A DNA stretch of 5,976 nt from an uncultured archaeon (GTDB lineage Archaea; Iainarchaeota; Iainarchaeia; Iainarchaeales; 0-14-0-20-30-16), in NCBI GenBank assembly GCA_964565125.1, contig CAZMCX010000049.1, positions 1 to 5,976 on the forward strand, given 5' to 3'. Position 1 is the stretch's first letter. Each line of letters begins with the position of its first letter. The notes under the pieces were generated by a model. The model was not told the DNA's origin and searched no databases. It was given only the letters and a program-made list of their open reading frames with translations. The translations under genes and the position numbers were made by a program. Positions 1 through 5,881 of this stretch are shown here, piece by piece.

Positions 1-29
1 AGGGAAACTGAAAAAGAAATATTTATGTT

Positions 30-296
30 ATGTATTTAAAGGTTACTTCACTAAAATATAATATGGATTTTGAGATTATAATCAACAAGGATCTAGTAAA
101 AACGGAAAGTGTAAATTTTGTAATGGGGCCAAGTTATATGTCTCCTTTTATATCGGGGGCCCTATTATTACAATTTGATAAAAATCTATCTAAATTATTA
201 ATTGCTAATGATCTTGCTTGCAACAAATTTACACCAATCAATGACCCGTTATTCTTAGATACAAAGTCATTAGATGAAAATAAGAAACAAGGGTAG
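30..296 (+). CDS. hypothetical small protein (88 aa)
   Basis: ORF-track ORF with ATG at 30, an alternative in-frame ATG at 63, and a TAG stop at 294-296. It converges on the amidohydrolase gene with 8 nt between the stops. I recognise no motif and see no clear SD. A frame-1 reading of 1..39 (..EKEIFMLCI*) could be the tail of an upstream gene overlapping this start by 10 nt. Confidence 0.35.
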   Translation: MYLKVTSLKYNMDFEIIINKDLVKTESVNFVMGPSYMSPFISGALLLQFDKNLSKLLIANDLACNKFTPINDPLFLDTKSLDENKKQG

Positions 297-304
297 AAAA
301 AATT

Positions 305-1285
305 TTAAATATTAAGGACTTTTATTGCATTCCAATAAAAAATTTTTTCTAAATCCTTTTTTTTAATATCTAAATTTTTAAATACAGCTCCCATTACATC
401 TAATTGATGATATAATAAAAAAGTTAATTCGGGCTTATTATTCAAATACCATTTTCTATCGTCCCTTTTAGTCCAAGGAAATCTTTTTTCCGTAATAAAT
501 TTATTTTGTATTTCACCGGGGGCGGCCATTATTTTTCCTTTTGTAAATGTATATGGAGAATCAGATCCATACAAGATATGTTCGGTTCCAAAACGAATTA
601 TAGCTTCTTCAAAAACATCTGGAGAAGAAACGGTTGATGTTTCTAAAAAAATGTTGCCAGATTGTTTTAATTTTCTAGATGCATTAACTACATCCATTTT
701 TGTTTGACATCCTCCCATATGTGCAAGAATTATCCTAATTTTTGGAAATTTTTCAAAGATATAGTTTAATTCAGAAATATTTTTATAATCATCGACCGGG
801 CTAATTTTAACATGAAGCATTACGGGTTTGAATGATTTATTTAATTCGTACAGAAAAGTTTCTGGTAAAAAATCTAAGATACTTATTTTCGTGTAATCTT
901 TTTTTATAAAATCATGATAAACTTTAAGGCCCTTTACTCTTGAAATTCTTAACAACTCACTTGTCTCTTTAGGATTATCTAAATTTCCTAAAACAAACGG
1001 GTTTTCACACTTCAAAGCATAATTATTGGCTTCTTTAATCTTTGTTTCTATAAATGGAAATGGAAAGGCCACATAATTTAGTTTTATTCCTGGAAGAAGC
1101 AATTTGAATATTTTTTCTAATTTTCCAATAGCCTGACTATATGCTATAGACACCCCAATACAAGATCTCTTTCTTTCAGCAGTAAGAATGCTATGATGCC
1201 TTGGCAGCCCAACATGATTATGCATATCAAAAATTTGTTTTGGTATCCAATCTAAAATTCTTTTTTGATATTCTAAATCCAACAT
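305..1285 (-). CDS. amidohydrolase-2 (PF04909-like) TIM-barrel metal-dependent hydrolase, 326 aa
   Basis: N-terminal D20-M-H22-N-H24 (DxHxH; nt 1214..1222) is followed by MLH158V, ILAH189MGG and LYGSD242SPY, with a C-terminal IFYWNAIKVL helix. The order and spacing of these metal-ligand motifs is typical of the amidohydrolase_2 family. It is the third gene on the same strand, 59 nt downstream of rSAM B. Confidence 0.8.
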   Translation of the reverse strand: MLDLEYQKRILDWIPKQIFDMHNHVGLPRHHSILTAERKRSCIGVSIAYSQAIGKLEKIFKLLLPGIKLNYVAFPFPFIETKIKEANNYALKCENPFVLGNLDNPKETSELLRISRVKGLKVYHDFIKKDYTKISILDFLPETFLYELNKSFKPVMLHVKISPVDDYKNISELNYIFEKFPKIRIILAHMGGCQTKMDVVNASRKLKQSGNIFLETSTVSSPDVFEEAIIRFGTEHILYGSDSPYTFTKGKIMAAPGEIQNKFITEKRFPWTKRDDRKWYLNNKPELTFLLYHQLDVMGAVFKNLDIKKKDLEKIFYWNAIKVLNI

Positions 1286-1333: not shown

Positions 1334-1348
1334 AAGCCAAACAGTTAT
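1334..1348. repeat. 15-nt exact direct repeat, copy 1 (aagccaaacagttat)
   Basis: Identical 15-mer to 1407..1421. This copy spans the TAA stop of rSAM B (1345-1347) and the first nucleotides of the B-C spacer. Confidence 0.7.
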
Positions 1349-2457
1349 TTTCTACAAATGTAACTTAGATTTTTATTTAACTTATTACAAATACAAGGCC
1401 TAAAAAAAGCCAAACAGTTATATTTAAATTTACAATTTTGACAAGTTGTCGACATGGCACAAAATTTTATTCTTTTTGCTTTTTGCGATAGCCATATTTT
1501 TTTTATTGATTCTTTAGTTATGTTTCCCAAACTTACGTCATGTAATGCACAGCCTTTAATCTGGCCATTAGGTTCAACATATAAATAGTTTTGTTTTTCT
1601 TGACAAATATAATGCGGCGGATTTTTTATACTGTGTAAGAATAAAGAGTCTATTTTTATGGGCATTGTTAACTTCTCTTTTTTAAAATTCTTTGCCATGT
1701 TCTTTGCTTTTTTTAAATAGTCCAAATAATTTAAATTTTTGAAAAGTTTTTTGGCATTACCAAAATTAACTAAAGAAATCAAAGTCCACGACTTTAGGTT
1801 AGTTAGTTTTAGTTTCTTAAGTTCTTTATATATATTATTTAAATTTTTTGCTGTTTTAAAATCAATCGTAGTCCTTATAACTATTGGAATATTATTTTTA
1901 TCCAAATTTTTTATGCCGTTTATTACTTTAAAATATGTCAACTTTTTACCACGCAGACGGTCATGCTTCTCTGCGACATCATCAAGACTTACAACTATTC
2001 TATTAATACAATATTTGGCTAGCTTTTTTGCAATTGTTTTAGTTATTTTTGTACCATTAGTTGAAATATCAATTCCAAGCCCAAGGCTATCTGCAAACGC
2101 AATAATGTCTAGAAAATCCGCCCTAATAAATGGTTCACCACCTGTAAAATTTACTGATAATACCCCTATATCATAAGCATCTTTTAAAATTGTTTTTATT
2201 TTTCTAAGGGACATACACTTTTTTTGGCCACCCGAAAAATTGTAACAATGCCAACAATTTAAATTACAATTAGAAGTAATACACAATCCGATTCTCTCTA
2301 AAGGCAAAAAATTAGTTTCTCTAAATGCATAGTTTTTCATAATTGATTTTTGTTTGTTTTTATCTATAATCTGATAAGCAGTATACGTTAACCTATTAAA
2401 TATAAAAAAATTTCGCTCTTTTTTGTAGTTAACTATTTGATAAAGGTTATTTAACAT
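1345..2457 (-). CDS. radical SAM / SPASM-domain enzyme B (370 aa)
   Basis: C64-NLN-C68-WH-C71 (CxxxCxxC; nt 2245..2268) and FTGGEPF (SAM-binding GGE motif). The C-terminal Cys-rich domain has C285..NG-QIKG-C303 (Gx4C) and C339-QN-C342-KFKYN-C348-LAFFRP-C355-I-C357, plus C368. Only about 60 aa precede the cluster-binding loop. Confidence 0.9.
   Translation of the reverse strand: MLNNLYQIVNYKKERNFFIFNRLTYTAYQIIDKNKQKSIMKNYAFRETNFLPLERIGLCITSNCNLNCWHCYNFSGGQKKCMSLRKIKTILKDAYDIGVLSVNFTGGEPFIRADFLDIIAFADSLGLGIDISTNGTKITKTIAKKLAKYCINRIVVSLDDVAEKHDRLRGKKLTYFKVINGIKNLDKNNIPIVIRTTIDFKTAKNLNNIYKELKKLKLTNLKSWTLISLVNFGNAKKLFKNLNYLDYLKKAKNMAKNFKKEKLTMPIKIDSLFLHSIKNPPHYICQEKQNYLYVEPNGQIKGCALHDVSLGNITKESIKKIWLSQKAKRIKFCAMSTTCQNCKFKYNCLAFFRPCICNKLNKNLSYICRK
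1407..1421. repeat. 15-nt exact direct repeat, copy 2 (aagccaaacagttat)
   Basis: Identical to 1334..1348 and offset by 73 nt. It lies inside rSAM B and encodes N347-C-L-A-F of the SPASM Cys motif. Confidence 0.7.
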
Positions 2458-3790
2458 TATTTTCCCCCCTTGTTAACCCTTTTTCTAATTCTGTTATTTC
2501 GTCCATAATACCTGATTTATACAAAAGACAAATTTCCTTATCATAATTTTCATAAATGCCATCAATGTGTAATGCATTGGCTCTACAACCAGTACCACAA
2601 AATCTAAGATATTTACAATTTTTACAATTTATATTTTTTTTAACTATGTCACAAATTTTTAGGTTTTTATATTTTTGCATTTTTTCAGATTCCCAAATTT
2701 CTTTTAATGATTGGTTTTTTATATTACCTACCGCATATTCTTTTGGCATTAATGCACAAGAAGTCACTGCCCCGTCATGCCAAATTGTAACATTATGTAA
2801 ATTATAATCACAACATAGGTCTTGAGGGGTATATTTTACGTTATAAACTTTTTTATAAAGATATCTAAACATATGGCCACATTCTAAGTCATAAGGTCTA
2901 TTATCTTTATCCCAACAAGAGATATATTTTTTATAAGCGGTTAATTCTTCATCAGATGAAACCCCTAAAGCATCTTTTGATTTTAACCACCCCCCCAATC
3001 TAAAGCCCGCATCAATTCTTACTCTAATTACATTATCATAATTTTGTATTATTTCATGTATTTTTGAAATGTTATTTAAGTTTAATTTGTTTAAAGATAT
3101 ATTTATTACTACGTTAAAATCCAAATTATTTAATGTTTCTATACCTGCCAAGGCAGATTTAAAAGCAGTTTTATTCTTACGGAAACTGTTGTGTTCATTT
3201 TCTAAGCCATCTAAAGATACATAAAATAGCGGTTTTCCCAGTTCTTTTATTTTTTTCAGAGTTTTTATTTTTTTTGACAATAATGTTCCATTGGTAAATA
3301 TATTCTCAATACGTATTTCTCTTCTATAAAAATAATTAAATACTTCTATAAGGTCTTTTCTAAGAAATGGCTCCCCCCCAGTAATAGTAATATTTAATGC
3401 AGACATATTTTGCATATCTTTTGCAAGTGTGTTTATTACTGTTTTTCCTAACTGATTTTGTTTACTATATGGTTTTATATAACAATGATAACAATTTAAA
3501 TTACATTTGGGGGTAATATGTAAAGTTGCTCGATACAAAAAGGGCCCTTTATATTTGATTATTTTGGGGGGTTGCTTTTTGTTTTCTAAGAAGCCCACAT
3601 CAACAAGATAATCTACTGTATCCAATTGATTTTTTGTCAGTTTTATTTTTTTTTTGTGTTCAAGAATAGCAACTAATTTAGTAGCAAAGGGGGAATTTAG
3701 CTCTTGTTTTTTTCCAGAATAGTAATTAAACAAATAAGTCTTATTTTTTGACATTTTTAAAGAAACATTTTTTGCCAAACAAAAATCCAT
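2447..3790 (-). CDS. radical SAM / SPASM-domain enzyme A with N-terminal RRE-like domain (447 aa)
   Basis: C96-NLN-C100-YH-C103 (nt 3482..3505) and ITGGEPF. The SPASM signature is canonical: C326/C327..HDG-AVTS-C345 (Gx4C), C389-KN-C392-KYLRF-C398-GTG-C402 (Cx2Cx5Cx3C) and downstream C421. About 95 aa precede the rSAM core. No other canonical start codon exists in frame upstream (in-frame TGA 79-81 nt upstream of the ATG). Confidence 0.9.
   Translation of the reverse strand: MDFCLAKNVSLKMSKNKTYLFNYYSGKKQELNSPFATKLVAILEHKKKIKLTKNQLDTVDYLVDVGFLENKKQPPKIIKYKGPFLYRATLHITPKCNLNCYHCYIKPYSKQNQLGKTVINTLAKDMQNMSALNITITGGEPFLRKDLIEVFNYFYRREIRIENIFTNGTLLSKKIKTLKKIKELGKPLFYVSLDGLENEHNSFRKNKTAFKSALAGIETLNNLDFNVVINISLNKLNLNNISKIHEIIQNYDNVIRVRIDAGFRLGGWLKSKDALGVSSDEELTAYKKYISCWDKDNRPYDLECGHMFRYLYKKVYNVKYTPQDLCCDYNLHNVTIWHDGAVTSCALMPKEYAVGNIKNQSLKEIWESEKMQKYKNLKICDIVKKNINCKNCKYLRFCGTGCRANALHIDGIYENYDKEICLLYKSGIMDEITELEKGLTRGENNVK
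2464..2471 (-). promoter_or_regulatory. Shine-Dalgarno-like element for rSAM B, embedded in the 3' end of rSAM A
   Basis: The minus strand reads AAGGGGGG-AAAATA-ATG, a purine/G-rich block 6 nt before B's ATG (2455..2457). Confidence 0.5.
3584..3769 (-). other. PqqD-like RiPP recognition element (RRE) domain within rSAM A (about residues 8-69)
   Basis: NVSLKMSKNKTYLFNYYSGKKQELNSPFATKLVAILEHKK...LDTVDYLVDVGFLE follows the pattern strand-strand-(S/T)G-x-x-x-x-LN-x-x-A-x-x-(I/L)-x-x-L, then a helix ending in a hydrophobic-G-hydrophobic motif. This is the pattern of PqqD/RRE winged-helix domains fused to peptide-modifying rSAM enzymes. The call rests on the pattern alone. Confidence 0.5.
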
Positions 3791-3857
3791 AATAATTAAG
3801 GGAAAGAAAGGTTTAAATAAGGTTTGTAAACAATATATAATTATAGAGGTGGAATTG
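3791..3857. promoter_or_regulatory. 67-nt divergent control region between rSAM A and the small ORF
   Basis: Contains the palindromic TTTAAA at 3812..3817, centred about 25 nt from A's ATG. TATAAT is on the + strand at 3836..3841 and TATAAT on the - strand at 3840..3845. No -35 partner is convincing on either strand. AT-rich background makes chance matches likely. Confidence 0.3.
3846..3851 (+). promoter_or_regulatory. Shine-Dalgarno (GAGGTG) for the 41-codon ORF
   Basis: aGAGGTGgaattgATG is a six-base match to the AGGAGGTG consensus, with 6 nt of spacing to the ATG at 3858. It is the clearest SD in the window. Confidence 0.55.
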
Positions 3858-3983
3858 ATGGCAAAGAATCAAGACTTTGAGCAAAAAGAAGAAAAAAAGG
3901 AATTACAAGAAAGGTTTGGGTTAAAATCAAATGAAATAATTGTTTCAAAAAAAGCATCAATGAACTCAAGCCCAGAATATTGA
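3858..3983 (+). CDS. unannotated small ORF, 41 aa: MAKNQDFEQKEEKKELQERFGLKSNEIIVSKKASMNSSPEY; candidate rSAM precursor peptide
   Basis: Hand-translated: ATG at 3858 and TGA at 3981-3983, followed immediately by an in-frame TAA. It has a strong, well-spaced SD. The + strand is purine-rich, as expected of a sense strand in AT-rich genomes. An open stretch of 41 codons is uncommon in intergenic DNA this rich in stop triplets. It sits divergent to and 67 nt from an RRE-bearing rSAM enzyme. There are no Cys, Trp or His residues. Confidence 0.45.
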   Translation: MAKNQDFEQKEEKKELQERFGLKSNEIIVSKKASMNSSPEY

Positions 3984-4019
3984 TAATTTTTTATTTTAAA
4001 AGTAAAAAACTGATTTTTT

Positions 4020-5621
4020 ATGAAATATGTCATTACTGGCGCGTTGCCTTATGTTAATTATGATTTACATTTTGGCCATGTAGTTTCTTGTTTACTTAGG
4101 CCAGACATATATAGTCGATTTCTAAGATTAAAAGGCGAACAAGTAATTTCAATTTGTGGGTCCGACGAATATGGTACCCCAATATTAGTTGCCTCAGAAC
4201 TGGAAAAAGTGACCCCCCAGGATTTATGCAATAAATATCACAAAATACAAAAAGAATGCATAACTAAATTAAACATTAATTTTGATATTTTTTCTAGAAC
4301 TACTTCTTTAGAACACAGTTTTGTTGTACAAGCATTTTATACTACTTTAAAAAATAATGGCTACATATATAAAAAAAACATAAACCAATTATTTTGTAAA
4401 AACTGTAATCGTTCTTTACCAGACAGATATGTTGAAGGAAATTGTCCTCATTGCGGGGGGCTGACAAGGGGAGATCAATGTGACTTTTGTAGTCAGTTAT
4501 TAGAACCTCACGAATTAATAGAAAACCATTGTATTGTGTGTAAAAACAAACCGGTTATAAAAACAAGCCAACACATTTTTTTTAAATTGTCGTCATTAGA
4601 TAAAAAACTAAAAAACTGGTTACTGGAAAAAAATGATTGGCCCAGTAATGCAAGAAATTATGCACTAAATTTAATAAAAACTGGGTTAAAAGATAAGGAT
4701 ATTTCTCGTGATTTATCCTGGGGAATTCCGATTCCAGACGAAGAAAATAAGGTTTTTTATGTTTGGTTTGATGCCCCAATAGGGTATATTACATTTGCTA
4801 AACAATTAGGCAAAGAAAATTGGTGGTTAGAAAAAGATACAAAAATAATTCAATTTATTGGAAAAGACAATATTCCATTTCATACAATATATTTCCCTGG
4901 AATGCTTTTGGCCCAAGGAAAATATAAATTGCCAAACATTATCTCGGCGTGTGAATTTCTTAATTATATGGGGCGTAAATTTTCAAAGAGTAAAAAAGTA
5001 GGTATTTTTTTAACTGATGCCCTTACTCTTTTCCCTGCAGATTATTGGCGTTACTATTTAGCAACAATACTACCTGAAACAAGTGATAGCTCTTTTGACT
5101 GGAAAGATTTTCAAACAATTGTAAACTGTGACTTAAATGACACAATCGGTAATTTCATAAACAGAACTATGGTTTTGGCAAAAAAATATTTTAGTTGCAA
5201 TGTAAAAAAACCACAACTTAGCGAAAATGATTTTGAATTATTAAATTTAATTTCAACAACTGTAGATTTATCTTCCACACAATTACATTCTATTAAAATA
5301 AAAAAGGCATTAACAACAATTGTGAATTTAATTAGGGCGGGAAATCAATATATAAATAAAGAAGAGCCTTGGAAAAATGACTTAAGAAGACAAAATGTAA
5401 TTTATGTTTGTTTACAGATTATAAAAGCAGCATCAATATTACTTCAACCATATATTCCAGACTCTACAAAAAAGATGCAAAAATATTTAAATCTAGATTG
5501 TAGATCTTGGGATGACGCAAAGAAACTGGAAAATTCTTTTGAATTTGACTCCAATTTTTCTATTTTATTTGATAAAATTGAGGATAAAAAAATTGAAACT
5601 TTAATTAATAACTTTACATAA
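4020..5621 (+). CDS. metG: methionyl-tRNA synthetase, core-only form (533 aa)
   Basis: HIGH motif H17-F-G-H20 (nt 4068..4079) and a KMSKS-type K320-F-S-K-S324 (nt 4977..4991). YVWFDAPIGY and GKDNIPFH match the E. coli MetRS blocks YVWLDAPIGY and GKDIVYFH. Four CxxC pairs (C126/129, C142/145, C154/157, C171/174) form the zinc-knuckle connective-peptide insertion. There is no C-terminal Trbp111/EMAPII-like appended domain and no SD before the ATG. Confidence 0.95.
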   Translation: MKYVITGALPYVNYDLHFGHVVSCLLRPDIYSRFLRLKGEQVISICGSDEYGTPILVASELEKVTPQDLCNKYHKIQKECITKLNINFDIFSRTTSLEHSFVVQAFYTTLKNNGYIYKKNINQLFCKNCNRSLPDRYVEGNCPHCGGLTRGDQCDFCSQLLEPHELIENHCIVCKNKPVIKTSQHIFFKLSSLDKKLKNWLLEKNDWPSNARNYALNLIKTGLKDKDISRDLSWGIPIPDEENKVFYVWFDAPIGYITFAKQLGKENWWLEKDTKIIQFIGKDNIPFHTIYFPGMLLAQGKYKLPNIISACEFLNYMGRKFSKSKKVGIFLTDALTLFPADYWRYYLATILPETSDSSFDWKDFQTIVNCDLNDTIGNFINRTMVLAKKYFSCNVKKPQLSENDFELLNLISTTVDLSSTQLHSIKIKKALTTIVNLIRAGNQYINKEEPWKNDLRRQNVIYVCLQIIKAASILLQPYIPDSTKKMQKYLNLDCRSWDDAKKLENSFEFDSNFSILFDKIEDKKIETLINNFT

Positions 5622-5644: not shown

Positions 5645-5881
5645 TTGACCAAATTACCGCATGAAGTTGAAGAAGCGTTGTTTGATTTATTGTGTGCAAT
5701 GTTTGATAGTGAAAAGAAAAAGGATTATAAAAAAATTATTGCACAAGATATCGCAAACAGAGATGGATATCACAAAAAATATATTTATGAAATATACAAA
5801 ATGATAAAACCTATTCTTGACGGAAAAGAAGACTTAGTTTGGAAATATATTGATTGGGGAAAATTAAAAAAGATAAAATAA
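5645..5881 (+). CDS. hypothetical small protein (78 aa from a TTG start; 60 aa if started at the first in-frame ATG, 5699)
   Basis: ORF-track ORF, but the codon at 5645 is TTG, not ATG, and has no SD. It starts 23 nt after the metG stop. The product is charged and Lys/Tyr-rich, with no recognisable motif. Confidence 0.35.
   Translation: MTKLPHEVEEALFDLLCAMFDSEKKKDYKKIIAQDIANRDGYHKKYIYEIYKMIKPILDGKEDLVWKYIDWGKLKKIK

What the first reader, a model, noticed from the sequence alone, without database searches (positions are those of the whole stretch)
3858..3983. Untracked 41-codon ORF with the clearest SD in the window; C-terminus ...SSPEY recalls Tyr-based peptide-cofactor precursors
Seen: GAGGTG lies 6 nt before the ATG, and the frame is open for 41 codons in stop-rich AT DNA. 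The sense strand is purine-biased, and the TGA-TAA stops are tandem. The peptide splits into a charged, helix-prone N-terminal part (NQDFEQKEEKKELQERF), a short beta-prone stretch (NEIIVS) and a small polar C-terminal tail (ASMNSSPEY). That leader-plus-core layout is what RRE-dependent precursors show. Established: MftA ends in Val-Tyr and MftC acts on the C-terminal Tyr, while PqqE crosslinks a Glu to a Tyr in PqqA. Inference only: the terminal Glu-Tyr pair is an obvious candidate reaction site. F20-G-L and F7-E-Q are alternative aromatic-x-x (cyclophane-type) sites.
Basis: partly seen in the sequence, partly recalled or inferred. Interest (0 to 1): 0.7.

Follow-up and report, generated by a model that had tools for sequence, protein, structure and literature searches.

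The report
Precursor peptide of a new radical-SAM family

Summary
In detail: ATG at 3858, GAGGTG 6 nt upstream, 41 codons, tandem TGA-TAA, 68% purine.

The host is probably a DPANN archaeon, judged from MetRS (59% identity to Micrarchaeota).

The peptide has no detectable homologue in 1.84 billion representative proteins. However, small ORFs beside four independent homologues of rSAM A (28-35% identical) share an ungapped 15-residue C-terminal block: (L/I)(K/H)x5-Φ-(S/N)-x-K-(A/S/T)-S-(M/I)-N. In leave-one-out scoring, each peptide ranks first of about 301,000 candidate ORF ends.

rSAM A models confidently (pLDDT 94) as RRE + radical-SAM + SPASM. Its closest solved folds are the peptide maturases SkfB, SuiB and CteB. 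So the precursor reading is supported.

The proposed chemistry is not. The tail after the block is variable (SSPEY / DNQ / LN / IAD), so the Glu-Tyr site is not conserved, and the MftC, PqqE and cyclophane criteria fail.

One unexpected pattern emerged. Three of the four loci lie directly beside a class-I tRNA synthetase whose specificity matches the residue before the conserved Asn: SMN with MetRS twice, SIN with IleRS once. This parallels the logic reported for tiarin aaRS inhibitors. With n=3 it remains a hypothesis.

The parts
3858..3983 (+). orf41: a 41-aa precursor peptide gene, stop TGA included, with TAA following at 3984-3986
   Evidence: ORF and translation are. Codon score is 0.423 bit/codon, above all 76 spurious open runs. 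It was called as a gene on six contigs. It ranks first of 301,239 candidates in the leave-one-out family profile.
3846..3851 (+). Shine-Dalgarno-like GAGGTG, 6 nt before the ATG
   Evidence: This is the only GAGGTG in the window. The only other copy in contig L001 sits 6 nt before the ATG of a second small ORF. Complementarity to the 16S rRNA 3' end rests on general knowledge, not on a test here.
3858..3920 (+). Leader region, residues 1-21 (MAKNQDFEQKEEKKELQERFG): Lys/Glu-rich, with no conserved positions beyond a basic patch
   Evidence: Alignment of the four peptides. The leader role is inferred from its position before the conserved block.
3921..3965 (+). Conserved 15-residue block LKSNEIIVSKKASMN (residues 22-36). 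It includes the core motif K32-A-S-M-N36 at 3951-3965.
   Evidence: The motif lies in a small ORF beside the rSAM in 4 of 4 loci. The chance expectation is about 0.001 per locus, and 0 of 80 control loci have it. The ungapped block ranks first in every leave-one-out test.
3966..3980 (+).
   Evidence: It is not conserved. The relatives have DNQ, LN and IAD at this position.
3812..3819 (.). TTTAAATA, a TATA-box-like element in the 67-nt divergent spacer. It is placed about 26 nt from the rSAM A start codon on the - strand and about 26 nt before position ~3842 on the + strand.
   Evidence: Read directly from the sequence. Promoter function is inferred from general knowledge of archaeal promoters and was not tested.
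3984..4019 (+). 36-nt T-rich spacer (TAATTTTTTATTTTAAAAG...TTTTTT) between orf41 and metG. It could be an archaeal oligo-T terminator, the metG promoter, or both.
   Evidence: Sequence. No hairpin terminator was found. Function is inferred.
2447..3790 (-). rSAM A: an N-terminal RRE-like domain (about residues 1-80, nt ~3551-3790), a radical-SAM core (CxxxCxxC at C96/C100/C103) and a SPASM domain. This is the proposed maturase of orf41.
   Evidence: Pfam Radical_SAM and SPASM. AF2 model with pLDDT 94 and β-β-β-α-α over residues 9-64. The top solved folds are SkfB, SuiB, CteB and TigE.
1345..2457 (-). rSAM B: a second radical-SAM/SPASM enzyme whose start overlaps the end of A by 11 nt. Probable tailoring enzyme.
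   Evidence: Pfam and NCBIfam. A-then-B synteny is kept in the closest relative, L105.
305..1285 (-). Amidohydro_2-family metal hydrolase, the last gene of the A-B-hydrolase operon. Possibly a tailoring or leader-removal step.
   Evidence: Pfam PF04909, E = 6e-13. The role is inferred.
4020..5621 (+). metG (MetRS, 533 aa, lacking the C-terminal tRNA-binding domain), 36 nt downstream of orf41. Its specificity matches Met35 of the core motif.
   Evidence: NF001100 scores 593 against a cut-off of 587. Matching aaRS adjacency is seen in L019 (MetRS with SMN) and L021 (IleRS with SIN).

Best explanation
orf41 is a translated gene for the precursor peptide of a previously undescribed radical-SAM RiPP family.

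The Lys/Glu-rich N-terminal part, together with the first half of the conserved block (L22-K23 ... V29-S30), acts as the leader. It is recognised by the RRE domain at the N-terminus of rSAM A. That positions the conserved core K32-A-S-M-N36 in A's radical-SAM/SPASM active site, where H-atom abstraction starts a modification within the Ser-Met-Asn triad. rSAM B and the Amidohydro_2 hydrolase then tailor or trim the product. The variable tail SSPEY is not the reaction site.

Shown here:
- the ORF's coding signal;
- its membership of a peptide family that co-occurs with the rSAM A clade;
- A's architecture of RRE + rSAM + SPASM.

Inferred only:
- binding of the leader to the RRE;
- which residue is modified;
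- the nature of the chemistry;
- the roles of B and the hydrolase.

A weaker, separable inference is that the product is directed at the cognate tRNA synthetase. Because the Met/Ile position co-varies with an adjacent MetRS/IleRS gene, the linked synthetase could be the self-protecting copy (see the section on the most novel reading).
For: **Coding signal.**
- The codon score of 0.423 bit/codon exceeds all 76 spurious open runs. Only 0.9% of open composition-matched shuffles reach it.
- The only GAGGTG in the window lies at the optimal 6-nt spacing.

**Family membership.**
- Small ORFs beside rSAM A homologues share K[AST]S[MI]N within 12 residues of the C-terminus. These are L019/L020 (37 aa, 25 nt upstream), L021/L022 (39 aa, GTG start, 22 nt upstream) and L007-L010 (30 aa, after a cupin gene).
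- Second-order Markov simulations of the flanks give about 0.001 per locus. The motif is seen in 4 of 4 family loci and 0 of 80 control rSAM/SPASM loci, which total 837 kb.
- A leave-one-out profile over the ungapped 15-residue block ranks the omitted peptide first of about 301,000 candidate ORF ends. This holds for each of the four peptides.
- A fifth locus, L103, has a divergent version (LEKAKRRYQLKVAIH) 75 nt upstream of its rSAM. It ranks 62 of 300,870.

**The enzyme.**
- AF2 gives pLDDT 94 with an N-terminal β-β-β-α-α domain.
- The best Foldseek PDB hits are the RiPP maturases SkfB, SuiB (full-length alignment including its RRE, TM 0.66), CteB and TigE.
- More distant homologues carry a Pfam PqqD domain.
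Against: - No sequence-level homologue was found by phmmer against 1.84 billion representatives or by the 5.8-billion-protein word search.
- Leave-one-out HMMER profiles do not recover the omitted member significantly (E about 4-5). The family therefore rests on a short block that I defined after seeing the sequences.
- orf41 is divergent from the rSAM operon and co-directional with metG. In the other three loci the peptide is on the rSAM strand.
- Purifying selection cannot be measured. The only variant is a single non-synonymous change (Q9K) on a contig with 1.3x coverage.
- Three further family contigs (L006, L104, L105) show no clear candidate. Each has at most about 450 bp on the relevant side.
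- No binding prediction or modification assay was possible.
Confidence: 0.75

Rival explanations
1. orf41 is a genuine small gene but is unrelated to the rSAM enzymes. It could be an upstream ORF or leader of metG whose Met codon couples translation to MetRS expression, or an independent small protein.
For: - It lies on the metG strand, 36 nt upstream, with no hairpin terminator between them.
- metG has no visible SD of its own.
- In L021 the peptide also lies upstream of the aaRS on the same strand.
Against: - The conserved partner across loci is the rSAM (4 of 4), not the aaRS (3 of 4).
- In L019 the MetRS is on the opposite strand, beyond the rSAM gene. A cis-acting leader cannot explain that family member.
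- The peptide has only one internal Met codon.
- Related Micrarchaeota metG loci have unrelated genes upstream (170-aa and 63-aa membrane proteins) and nothing resembling orf41.
- The oligo-T tract after the stop could terminate archaeal transcription (inference).
Confidence: 0.1
2. orf41 is a Tyr-based cofactor precursor resembling MftA or PqqA, with the C-terminal Glu-Tyr as the reaction site, or a cyclophane precursor using F20-G-L or F7-E-Q.
For: - The peptide ends in Glu-Tyr.
- MftC and PqqE appear among the weaker NCBIfam hits of A and B.
- PqqE is a structural neighbour, at rank 16.
Against: - The tail after the conserved Asn is variable and lacks Tyr in the other members (DNQ, LN, IAD).
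- F20 aligns with L or is absent in the relatives, and F7 is not conserved.
- A and B score 77.5 and 88 against the MftC cut-off of 265. B scores 80.9 against the PqqE cut-off of 381.35, and PqqE is not among A's 25 listed families.
- No mftB/D/E/F or pqqB/C/D genes are on the contig.
Confidence: 0.04
3. The ORF is a chance open frame in a purine-rich promoter or 5' region and is not translated.
For: - A 41-codon ATG-ORF arises in 6.8% of shuffled spacers.
- The same region is open in two antisense frames.
- The peptide is an orphan by sequence search.
- The flanking 67-nt spacer is equally purine-rich.
Against: - The codon score lies beyond every spurious open run and beyond 99.1% of open shuffles.
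- The unique GAGGTG is at the optimal spacing.
- It ranks first of 301,239 candidates against a profile built only from peptides of other organisms.
Confidence: 0.04
4. The substrate of A and B is a different peptide, and orf41 has another role. Candidates are the 35-aa Cys-containing ORF just outside the window (L001:5307-5414) or the 77-aa ORF at window 63-296.
For: - The 35-aa ORF has the same GAGGTG-N6-ATG signal and a Cys-containing C-terminus, CPDSKGCAK.
- The 77-aa ORF abuts the end of the operon.
Against: - The 35-aa ORF is translationally coupled (TAATG) to its own 263-aa gene and a third rSAM/SPASM. It is 700 bp and one opposing gene away from the A-B operon.
- Neither ORF carries the family block.
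- Block-bearing peptides travel with A homologues that lack those other genes.
Confidence: 0.07

Closest known systems
RRE-dependent radical-SAM/SPASM RiPP maturases with a separate small precursor: SuiB/SuiA (streptide), CteB/CteA (sactipeptide), SkfB/SkfA
   Same: - The enzyme has the same architecture: an N-terminal RRE, a radical-SAM core and a SPASM domain. These enzymes are the best solved-structure matches.
- The precursor is a 30-41 aa peptide with a leader and a short conserved C-terminal core, encoded next to the enzyme.
   Different: - The core has no Cys, so sactionine or ranthionine links are excluded, and no Trp or other conserved aromatic residue, so a streptide or cyclophane link is excluded.
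- Enzyme identity to these proteins is only 14-18%, and no NCBIfam model reaches its cut-off.
- The host is probably a DPANN archaeon.
Tiarins (trifolitoxin-like RiPP inhibitors of aminoacyl-tRNA synthetases; bioRxiv 10.64898/2025.12.02.691738)
   Same: The genomic logic is the same. In tiarin clusters the residue just before a conserved amide residue (Gln) matches the specificity of an aaRS gene in the cluster, which the authors read as an immunity copy. Here the residue before a conserved Asn is Met beside MetRS (twice) and Ile beside IleRS (once). As in tiarins, the precursors show little overall similarity apart from two short motifs, and the accessory enzymes vary.
   Different: - Tiarins are defined by the FMN-dependent TfxB/TfxC pair. 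None is present here, and the enzyme is a radical-SAM/SPASM protein.
- The conserved residue is Asn, not Gln.
- A second, housekeeping aaRS copy, found in every tiarin genome, could not be looked for on these short contigs.
- No activity data exist.
Mycofactocin (MftA/MftB/MftC) and PQQ (PqqA/PqqD/PqqE)
   Same: Each has a small precursor, an rSAM/SPASM enzyme and RRE-type recognition. orf41 ends in Glu-Tyr, which superficially recalls the Val-Tyr of MftA and the Glu...Tyr of PqqA.
   Different: - The terminal Tyr is not conserved in the family.
- Enzyme scores are far below the family cut-offs.
- No other mft or pqq genes are present.
- The RRE is fused to the enzyme rather than being a separate MftB or PqqD.
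Radical-SAM cyclopropyl synthases TvgB/TigE (PMC10878394)
   Same: These are rSAM/SPASM enzymes that act on an aliphatic residue (Val or Ile) inside a short Ser/Thr-rich motif (TIGSVS). TigE is the 6th-best structural neighbour. This shows that an Ile or Met side chain in such a core can itself be the rSAM target.
   Different: - The family-defining GYW motif, whose Tyr ligates the auxiliary cluster, is absent from all nine clade members. A has GGW.
- The core here occurs once, whereas those precursors carry repeats.
Microcin C (MccA/MccB) Trojan-horse aspartyl-adenylate mimic
   Same: A very small ribosomal precursor in which an Asn is the chemically converted residue, giving a product that targets an aaRS.
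   Different: - In MccA the Asn is C-terminal and is adenylated by a ThiF-like MccB. No such enzyme is present here.
- The Asn here is followed by 2-5 further residues.

Membership tests
RRE-dependent rSAM/SPASM RiPP system (generic class) | Radical-SAM enzyme with a CxxxCxxC motif and a SPASM auxiliary-cluster domain | tested here: met
   For A, Pfam Radical_SAM has E = 8e-20 and SPASM E = 3e-11. C96, C100 and C103 and seven further Cys are invariant in the clade.
RRE-dependent rSAM/SPASM RiPP system (generic class) | RiPP recognition element (PqqD-like β3-α3 domain) fused to the enzyme or encoded beside it | tested here: met
   The AF2 model (pLDDT 87-97 over residues 1-80) has strands at 9-13, 18-22 and 28-30 and helices at 33-45 and 53-64. 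It aligns over its full length with the RRE-bearing SuiB and CteB. Pfam PqqD itself is not detected in A, only in more distant homologues.
RRE-dependent rSAM/SPASM RiPP system (generic class) | Small precursor gene adjacent to the enzyme, with a core conserved among loci that carry orthologous enzymes | tested here: met
   The 15-residue block is shared in 4 loci, with a divergent fifth. Each peptide ranks first in the leave-one-out test, and 0 of 80 control loci carry the motif.
RRE-dependent rSAM/SPASM RiPP system (generic class) | The enzyme modifies the peptide (mass change, 5'-deoxyadenosine formation) | not testable with these tools
   This needs co-expression or in vitro reconstitution.
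Mycofactocin | MftC-type maturase (TIGR03962) and a precursor ending in ...GVY | tested here: not met
   TIGR03962 scores 77.5 for A and 88 for B against a cut-off of 265. The peptide ends in SSPEY and its relatives have no Tyr.
PQQ | PqqE (TIGR02109) plus a PqqA with a conserved E-x3-Y, and the pqqB/C/D genes | tested here: not met
   TIGR02109 scores 80.9 for B against a cut-off of 381.35 and is not among the 25 families listed for A. No pqqB/C/D domains are on the contigs. Glu and Tyr are not conserved.
Sactipeptide / ranthipeptide | Cys residues in the core as thioether donors | tested here: not met
   orf41 and the three clear relatives contain no Cys.
Triceptide / cyclophane (3-CyFE), streptide, darobactin-type | A conserved aromatic residue in the core (Ω-x-x or K...W) | tested here: not met
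   No aromatic position is conserved in the block. Position 8 is V, F, I or V, and F20 and F7 of orf41 have no counterpart.
rSAM cyclopropyl synthases (TvgB/TigE) | GYW motif ligating auxiliary cluster I, and a repeated core motif | tested here: not met
   GYW is absent from all nine clade members. The core occurs once.
Tiarins | TfxB/TfxC FMN-dependent dehydrogenase pair and a conserved Gln in the core | tested here: not met
   No such domains occur in any gene of the window or L001. The conserved residue is Asn.
Tiarins (logic only) | The residue before the conserved amide residue matches the cluster-encoded aaRS | tested here: met
   Window: S-M-N with MetRS (NF001100, 593 against 587). L019: S-M-N with MetRS (637 against 587). 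L021: S-I-N with IleRS (TIGR00392, 901 against 621). L007 (S-I-N) has no aaRS within its 10 kb. The sample is n = 3.
Tiarins (logic only) | A second, housekeeping copy of the same aaRS elsewhere in the genome | not testable with these tools
   Only contigs of 3-10 kb are available. The scans of the species-representative genome collection returned no close relative of the MetRS or of rSAM A.

The most novel reading that the evidence does not exclude
The rSAM A clade and its peptides make aaRS-directed molecules, either Trojan-horse inhibitors or toxic Met/Ile analogues.

In this reading, the residue preceding the conserved Asn (Met in this window) programmes the target. The adjacent synthetase, here the archaeon's MetRS, would be the self-protecting copy. 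This would be a radical-SAM counterpart of the tiarins or of microcin C, found in ultra-small DPANN archaea and in low-GC bacteria.

Evidence for this reading:
- Three of four block-bearing loci abut a class-I aaRS of matching specificity.
- The two Met/MetRS loci lie in different subclades of the enzyme tree. The nearest relative of one of them is the Ile/IleRS locus.
- In L021 a 27-residue remnant of a different IleRS N-terminus lies just upstream of the peptide-rSAM-IleRS unit. This suggests the unit arrived together with its own ileS.
- Among 80 control rSAM/SPASM loci, only 5 (two lineages) have any class-I aaRS within 6 kb.

Evidence against:
- The sample is n = 3.
- L007 and L103 show no aaRS on their contigs.
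- The window MetRS shows no unusual substitutions at conserved sites.
- Its best matches are Micrarchaeota MetRS, as expected for a vertically inherited housekeeping gene.
Probability: 0.3. Interest if true: 0.85.

Novelty: new variant of a known kind. Interest (0 to 1): 0.66.

Why it matters
RiPP biosynthesis in DPANN archaea and other ultra-small episymbionts has hardly been explored. My literature searches found no description of this enzyme clade or peptide motif.

The peptide defines a radical-SAM RiPP family whose conserved core, K-x-S-(M/I)-N, has neither Cys nor an aromatic residue. The chemistry is therefore unlikely to be any of the established thioether or cyclophane cross-links.

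If the co-variation between the Met/Ile position and the neighbouring MetRS/IleRS holds in a larger sample, two things follow:
- It would give a sequence rule for predicting the target of a new class of synthetase-directed natural products.
- It would be, to my knowledge, the first natural-product lead against MetRS.

It would also show organisms with minimal genomes investing in chemical warfare or host manipulation.

Tried and rejected
1. **Direct homology.** The word-indexed search of 5.8 billion proteins and phmmer against 1.84 billion representatives returned only the peptide's own 98%-identical variant.
2. **dN/dS.** The six contigs are 99.3-100% identical. The only change inside the ORF is Q9K, on a contig with 1.3x coverage, so this is uninformative.
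3. **Synteny with related genomes.**
   - A MetRS scan of the species-representative genome collection found no relative.
   - Micrarchaeota metG loci have a 170-aa or 63-aa membrane-protein gene upstream.
   - I tested whether orf41 is a remnant of that gene and rejected the idea. There was no similarity in any frame.
4. **Non-coding RNA or T-box leader of metG.** There was no Rfam hit and the fold z-score was 0.04.
5. **Leave-one-out HMMER profiles of the peptides.** These were not significant (E about 4-5). Only the ungapped block profile discriminates.
6. **Wider scans with the rSAM A clade alignment.** Scans of genome contigs and viral contigs picked a generic CxxxCxxC pattern and returned only rSAM/SPASM proteins at 19-38% identity over the best segment. 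I used the 80 genome loci as the negative controls for the motif and aaRS tests, and all 160 loci as background for the block profile. The rSAM B scan of metagenome contigs gave only the same contig and one unrelated locus.
7. **MetRS N-terminal remnant** flanking the island, by analogy with the IleRS remnant in L021. None was found in L001 or L019.
8. **Resistance-type substitutions in MetRS.** The window MetRS deviates at 3 of 86 highly conserved columns, against a 90th percentile of 4 among homologues. L019 deviates at 9, but it belongs to another lineage. This is inconclusive.
9. **AF2 on a peptide-linker-rSAM A fusion** to test leader binding.
10. **PADLOC.** Hits to viperin models reflect only the shared radical-SAM core.
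11. **Candidate peptides on the short contigs L104, L105 and L006.** None was convincing. The L105 ORF ...RLRFSAQNSSQTYSN runs off the contig end.
Full report
**1. The observation**

The window has ATG at 3858, GAGGTG at 3846-3851 (6-nt spacer), 41 sense codons and a TGA at 3981-3983 followed at once by TAA. The sense strand is 68% purine, against 52-57% in the six long genes of the locus.

Length alone is weak evidence. Shuffled versions of the 229-nt spacer contain an ATG-ORF of at least 41 codons in 6.8% of trials. Two antisense ORFs of 42 and 54 aa overlap the same region.

The coding signal is strong.
- I trained a codon log-odds model on six long genes of the contig. The ORF scores 0.423 bit/codon, above the mean of real-gene chunks (0.327).
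- That score is above all 76 spurious stop-free runs of at least 30 codons (maximum 0.251). Among composition-matched shuffles that stay open, only 0.9% reach it.
- GAGGTG occurs once in the window and twice in the 7.7-kb contig L001. Both L001 copies lie 6 nt before the ATG of a small ORF.
- Gene callers called the ORF on all six public contigs that carry it.
- No Rfam family matches, and the RNA folds no better than shuffles (z = 0.04).

**2. Context**

On the minus strand lie rSAM/SPASM A (2447-3790), rSAM/SPASM B (1345-2457, overlapping A by 11 nt) and an Amidohydro_2 hydrolase (305-1285). On the plus strand lie orf41, then metG 36 nt later (4020-5621), then a 78-aa ORF. orf41 is therefore divergent from the rSAM operon, with 67 nt between the two start codons, and co-directional with metG.

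The best named relatives of the MetRS are from Candidatus Micrarchaeota (59% identity), followed by other DPANN archaea. The host is thus probably a DPANN archaeon with 28% GC, not a bacterium. This rests on one gene.

GAGGTG is complementary to the conserved 3' end of 16S rRNA, so the SD reading survives; that is general knowledge, not tested here. The spacer contains TTTAAATA (3812-3819). Its position would allow a leaderless rSAM A transcript on one strand and an orf41 transcript starting near 3842 on the other. An oligo-T tract follows the stop codons. These promoter and terminator readings are inferences from the sequence.

Contig L001 extends beyond the start of the window. It shows a second cassette: a 35-aa ORF with the same GAGGTG-N6-ATG signal, a 263-aa protein and a third rSAM/SPASM.

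**3. Homology of the peptide**

The peptide is an orphan by standard searches. The only hit is a 98%-identical variant (Q9K). The available contigs are 99.3-100% identical, so dN/dS is impossible.

Micrarchaeota metG loci keep a different upstream gene, a 170-aa or 63-aa membrane protein. They contain nothing resembling orf41 or the rSAM genes. I tested whether orf41 is a remnant of that upstream gene and rejected the idea.

**4. What the relatives of rSAM A show**

The closest homologues of A are only 28-39% identical. I fetched their contigs. Small ORFs next to four independent members share a C-terminal motif:

| Locus | Peptide end | Position relative to the rSAM |
|---|---|---|
| window | ...LKSNEIIVSKKASMN-SSPEY | divergent, 67 nt between the start codons |
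| L019/L020 | ...LKHRKEPFNLKTSMN-DNQ (37 aa) | 25 nt upstream |
| L021/L022 | ...LHSAKKSVNLKSSIN-IAD (39 aa, GTG start, not called by the gene callers) | 22 nt upstream |
| L007-L010 | ...IKAERLTISTKSSIN-LN (30 aa) | downstream, after a cupin gene |

The four align without gaps over 15 residues: (L/I)(K/H)x5-Φ-(S/N)-x-K-(A/S/T)-S-(M/I)-N.

Statistical support:
- I defined a qualifying ORF as 20-60 aa with K[AST]S[MI]N within 12 residues of its end, lying within 700 bp of the rSAM gene. It arises in about 0.1% of second-order Markov simulations of each locus's flanks.
- It is present in 4 of 4 family loci and in 0 of 80 control rSAM/SPASM loci totalling 837 kb.
- I chose the motif after seeing the sequences, so I ran a leave-one-out test. 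A BLOSUM-averaged profile of three blocks was scored against every 15-mer lying 0-6 residues from the end of every six-frame ORF of at least 20 aa in 172 loci. The omitted peptide ranked first of about 301,000, for each of the four.
- Leave-one-out HMMER profiles were not significant. The signal therefore lies in the block, not in the leaders.
- A fifth locus, L103, has a divergent version (LEKAKRRYQLKVAIH-PVDE) 75 nt upstream of its rSAM. It ranks 62 of 300,870.
- Three further contigs are too short to judge. One of them, L105, keeps the A-then-B gene order.

**5. The enzyme**

With a 62-sequence alignment, AlphaFold2 models A at pLDDT 94. The model has an N-terminal β-β-β-α-α domain (residues 9-64) ahead of the radical-SAM barrel and the SPASM domain.

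The best Foldseek matches in the PDB are peptide maturases. They are SkfB, SuiB (aligned over its full length, including its RRE, TM 0.66), CteB and TigE, followed by anSME and PqqE. More distant sequence homologues carry a Pfam PqqD domain. No NCBIfam model comes near its cut-off.

**6. Best explanation**

orf41 is the precursor of a new radical-SAM RiPP family. Its leader docks on A's RRE, and A acts within the K-A-S-M-N core. B and the hydrolase are tailoring enzymes.

The coding signal, the family membership and the enzyme architecture are shown here. The binding, the modified residue and the chemistry are inferred. I give this a confidence of about 0.75.

**7.

The tail after the conserved Asn varies (SSPEY, DNQ, LN, IAD), so Glu-Tyr is not the conserved site. 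F20 and F7 have no counterparts in the relatives. There is no Cys.

A and B score 77.5 and 88 against the MftC cut-off of 265. B scores 80.9 against the PqqE cut-off of 381.35, and PqqE is not among A's 25 listed families. The GYW motif of cyclopropyl synthases is absent (PMC10878394).

**8. An unexpected pattern**

- The window (S-M-N) lies next to MetRS.
- L019 (S-M-N) has a true MetRS 28 nt beyond the rSAM stop codon, in convergent orientation.
- L021 (S-I-N) has a true IleRS 10 nt after the rSAM gene on the same strand.
- L007 (S-I-N) and L103 show no aaRS on their contigs.

Among the 80 control loci, only 5, from two lineages, have any class-I aaRS within 6 kb.

In a neighbour-joining tree of the enzymes, the two Met/MetRS loci fall in different subclades. 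The nearest relatives of L019 are the Ile-type loci.

In L021 the called 43-aa gene just upstream of the peptide is a remnant of a different IleRS N-terminus. This suggests the peptide-rSAM-ileS unit displaced the resident gene.

This mirrors the rule reported for tiarins. There, the residue before a conserved Gln matches a cluster-encoded aaRS, which the authors read as an immunity copy (bioRxiv 10.64898/2025.12.02.691738).

Several points argue for caution:
- The sample is n = 3.
- The window MetRS looks like an ordinary Micrarchaeota enzyme.
- It shows no exceptional substitutions at conserved sites.
- A second aaRS copy cannot be sought on such short contigs.

I rate the aaRS-directed reading at about 0.3.

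**9. Novelty**

My literature searches found no description of this clade, this motif or an aaRS-linked radical-SAM RiPP. It is a new variant of a known kind: an rSAM/SPASM RiPP system with a new core, a new host range and a possible new target logic.

Noticed in passing
L001:5295-7163 (just beyond window position 1, opposite orientation): A second RiPP-like cassette sits here. It has a 35-aa ORF (MKLLNYVGQTREVDLKKLSSRKLVKQCPDSKGCAK) with the same GAGGTG-N6-ATG signal. That ORF is translationally coupled (TAATG) to a 263-aa protein with no Pfam hit, which is followed by a third rSAM/SPASM enzyme.
   Followed up: partly
L021:274-405: The called 43-aa gene is a remnant of an IleRS N-terminus (MNIPEIEEKILAFWQKNKIFEKSLKGR...). 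It differs from the N-terminus of the intact IleRS at 2000-4852. Its stop codon overlaps the GTG start of the precursor. This suggests the peptide-rSAM-ileS unit was inserted into, or replaced, the resident ileS.
   Followed up: partly
L019:3333-4867: A NUDIX hydrolase and a Peptidase_S66 (LD-carboxypeptidase/MccF family) gene lie directly upstream of the precursor in the L019 MetRS-linked locus. MccF is the microcin C immunity peptidase, but the match here is only at family level (105 bits against a cut-off of 378).
   Followed up: no
window 1-55: All six differences between the window and contigs L001-L003 cluster in the first 51 bases, and the window contig ends there while L001 continues. 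This looks like a strain-level breakpoint at the edge of the rSAM island.
   Followed up: no
window 63-296 (+): A 77-aa ORF (88 aa from an upstream ATG) converges on the hydrolase gene. It has no family hit, and its codon score of 0.26 is in the range of real genes. Function unknown.
   Followed up: no
window 5645-5881 (+): A 78-aa ORF with a TTG start follows metG. Its codon score is high (0.48) and it has no family hit. Related Micrarchaeota have an unrelated 71-78 aa membrane-anchored protein at this position.
   Followed up: partly
window 4020-5621: The MetRS lacks the C-terminal tRNA-binding domain (PF01588). In relatives L015 and L017 that domain is a separate gene right after metG, and in L014 it is fused. 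No such gene follows metG in the window.
   Followed up: no
L105:1-80 (- strand): In the closest relative of rSAM A (P0002, which keeps A-B synteny), a divergent ORF preceded by GGAGG reads ...MVIGRLRFSAQNSSQTYSN and runs off the contig end. SAQNSSQTY resembles ASMNSSPEY of orf41, but the similarity is not significant and the Lys of the motif is missing.
   Followed up: partly
L007:4030-5676: An ABC-F type ATPase gene (548 aa, two ABC domains) lies about 1.3 kb upstream of the rSAM A homologue in the one S-I-N locus that has no aaRS on its contig. The relevance is unknown.
   Followed up: no
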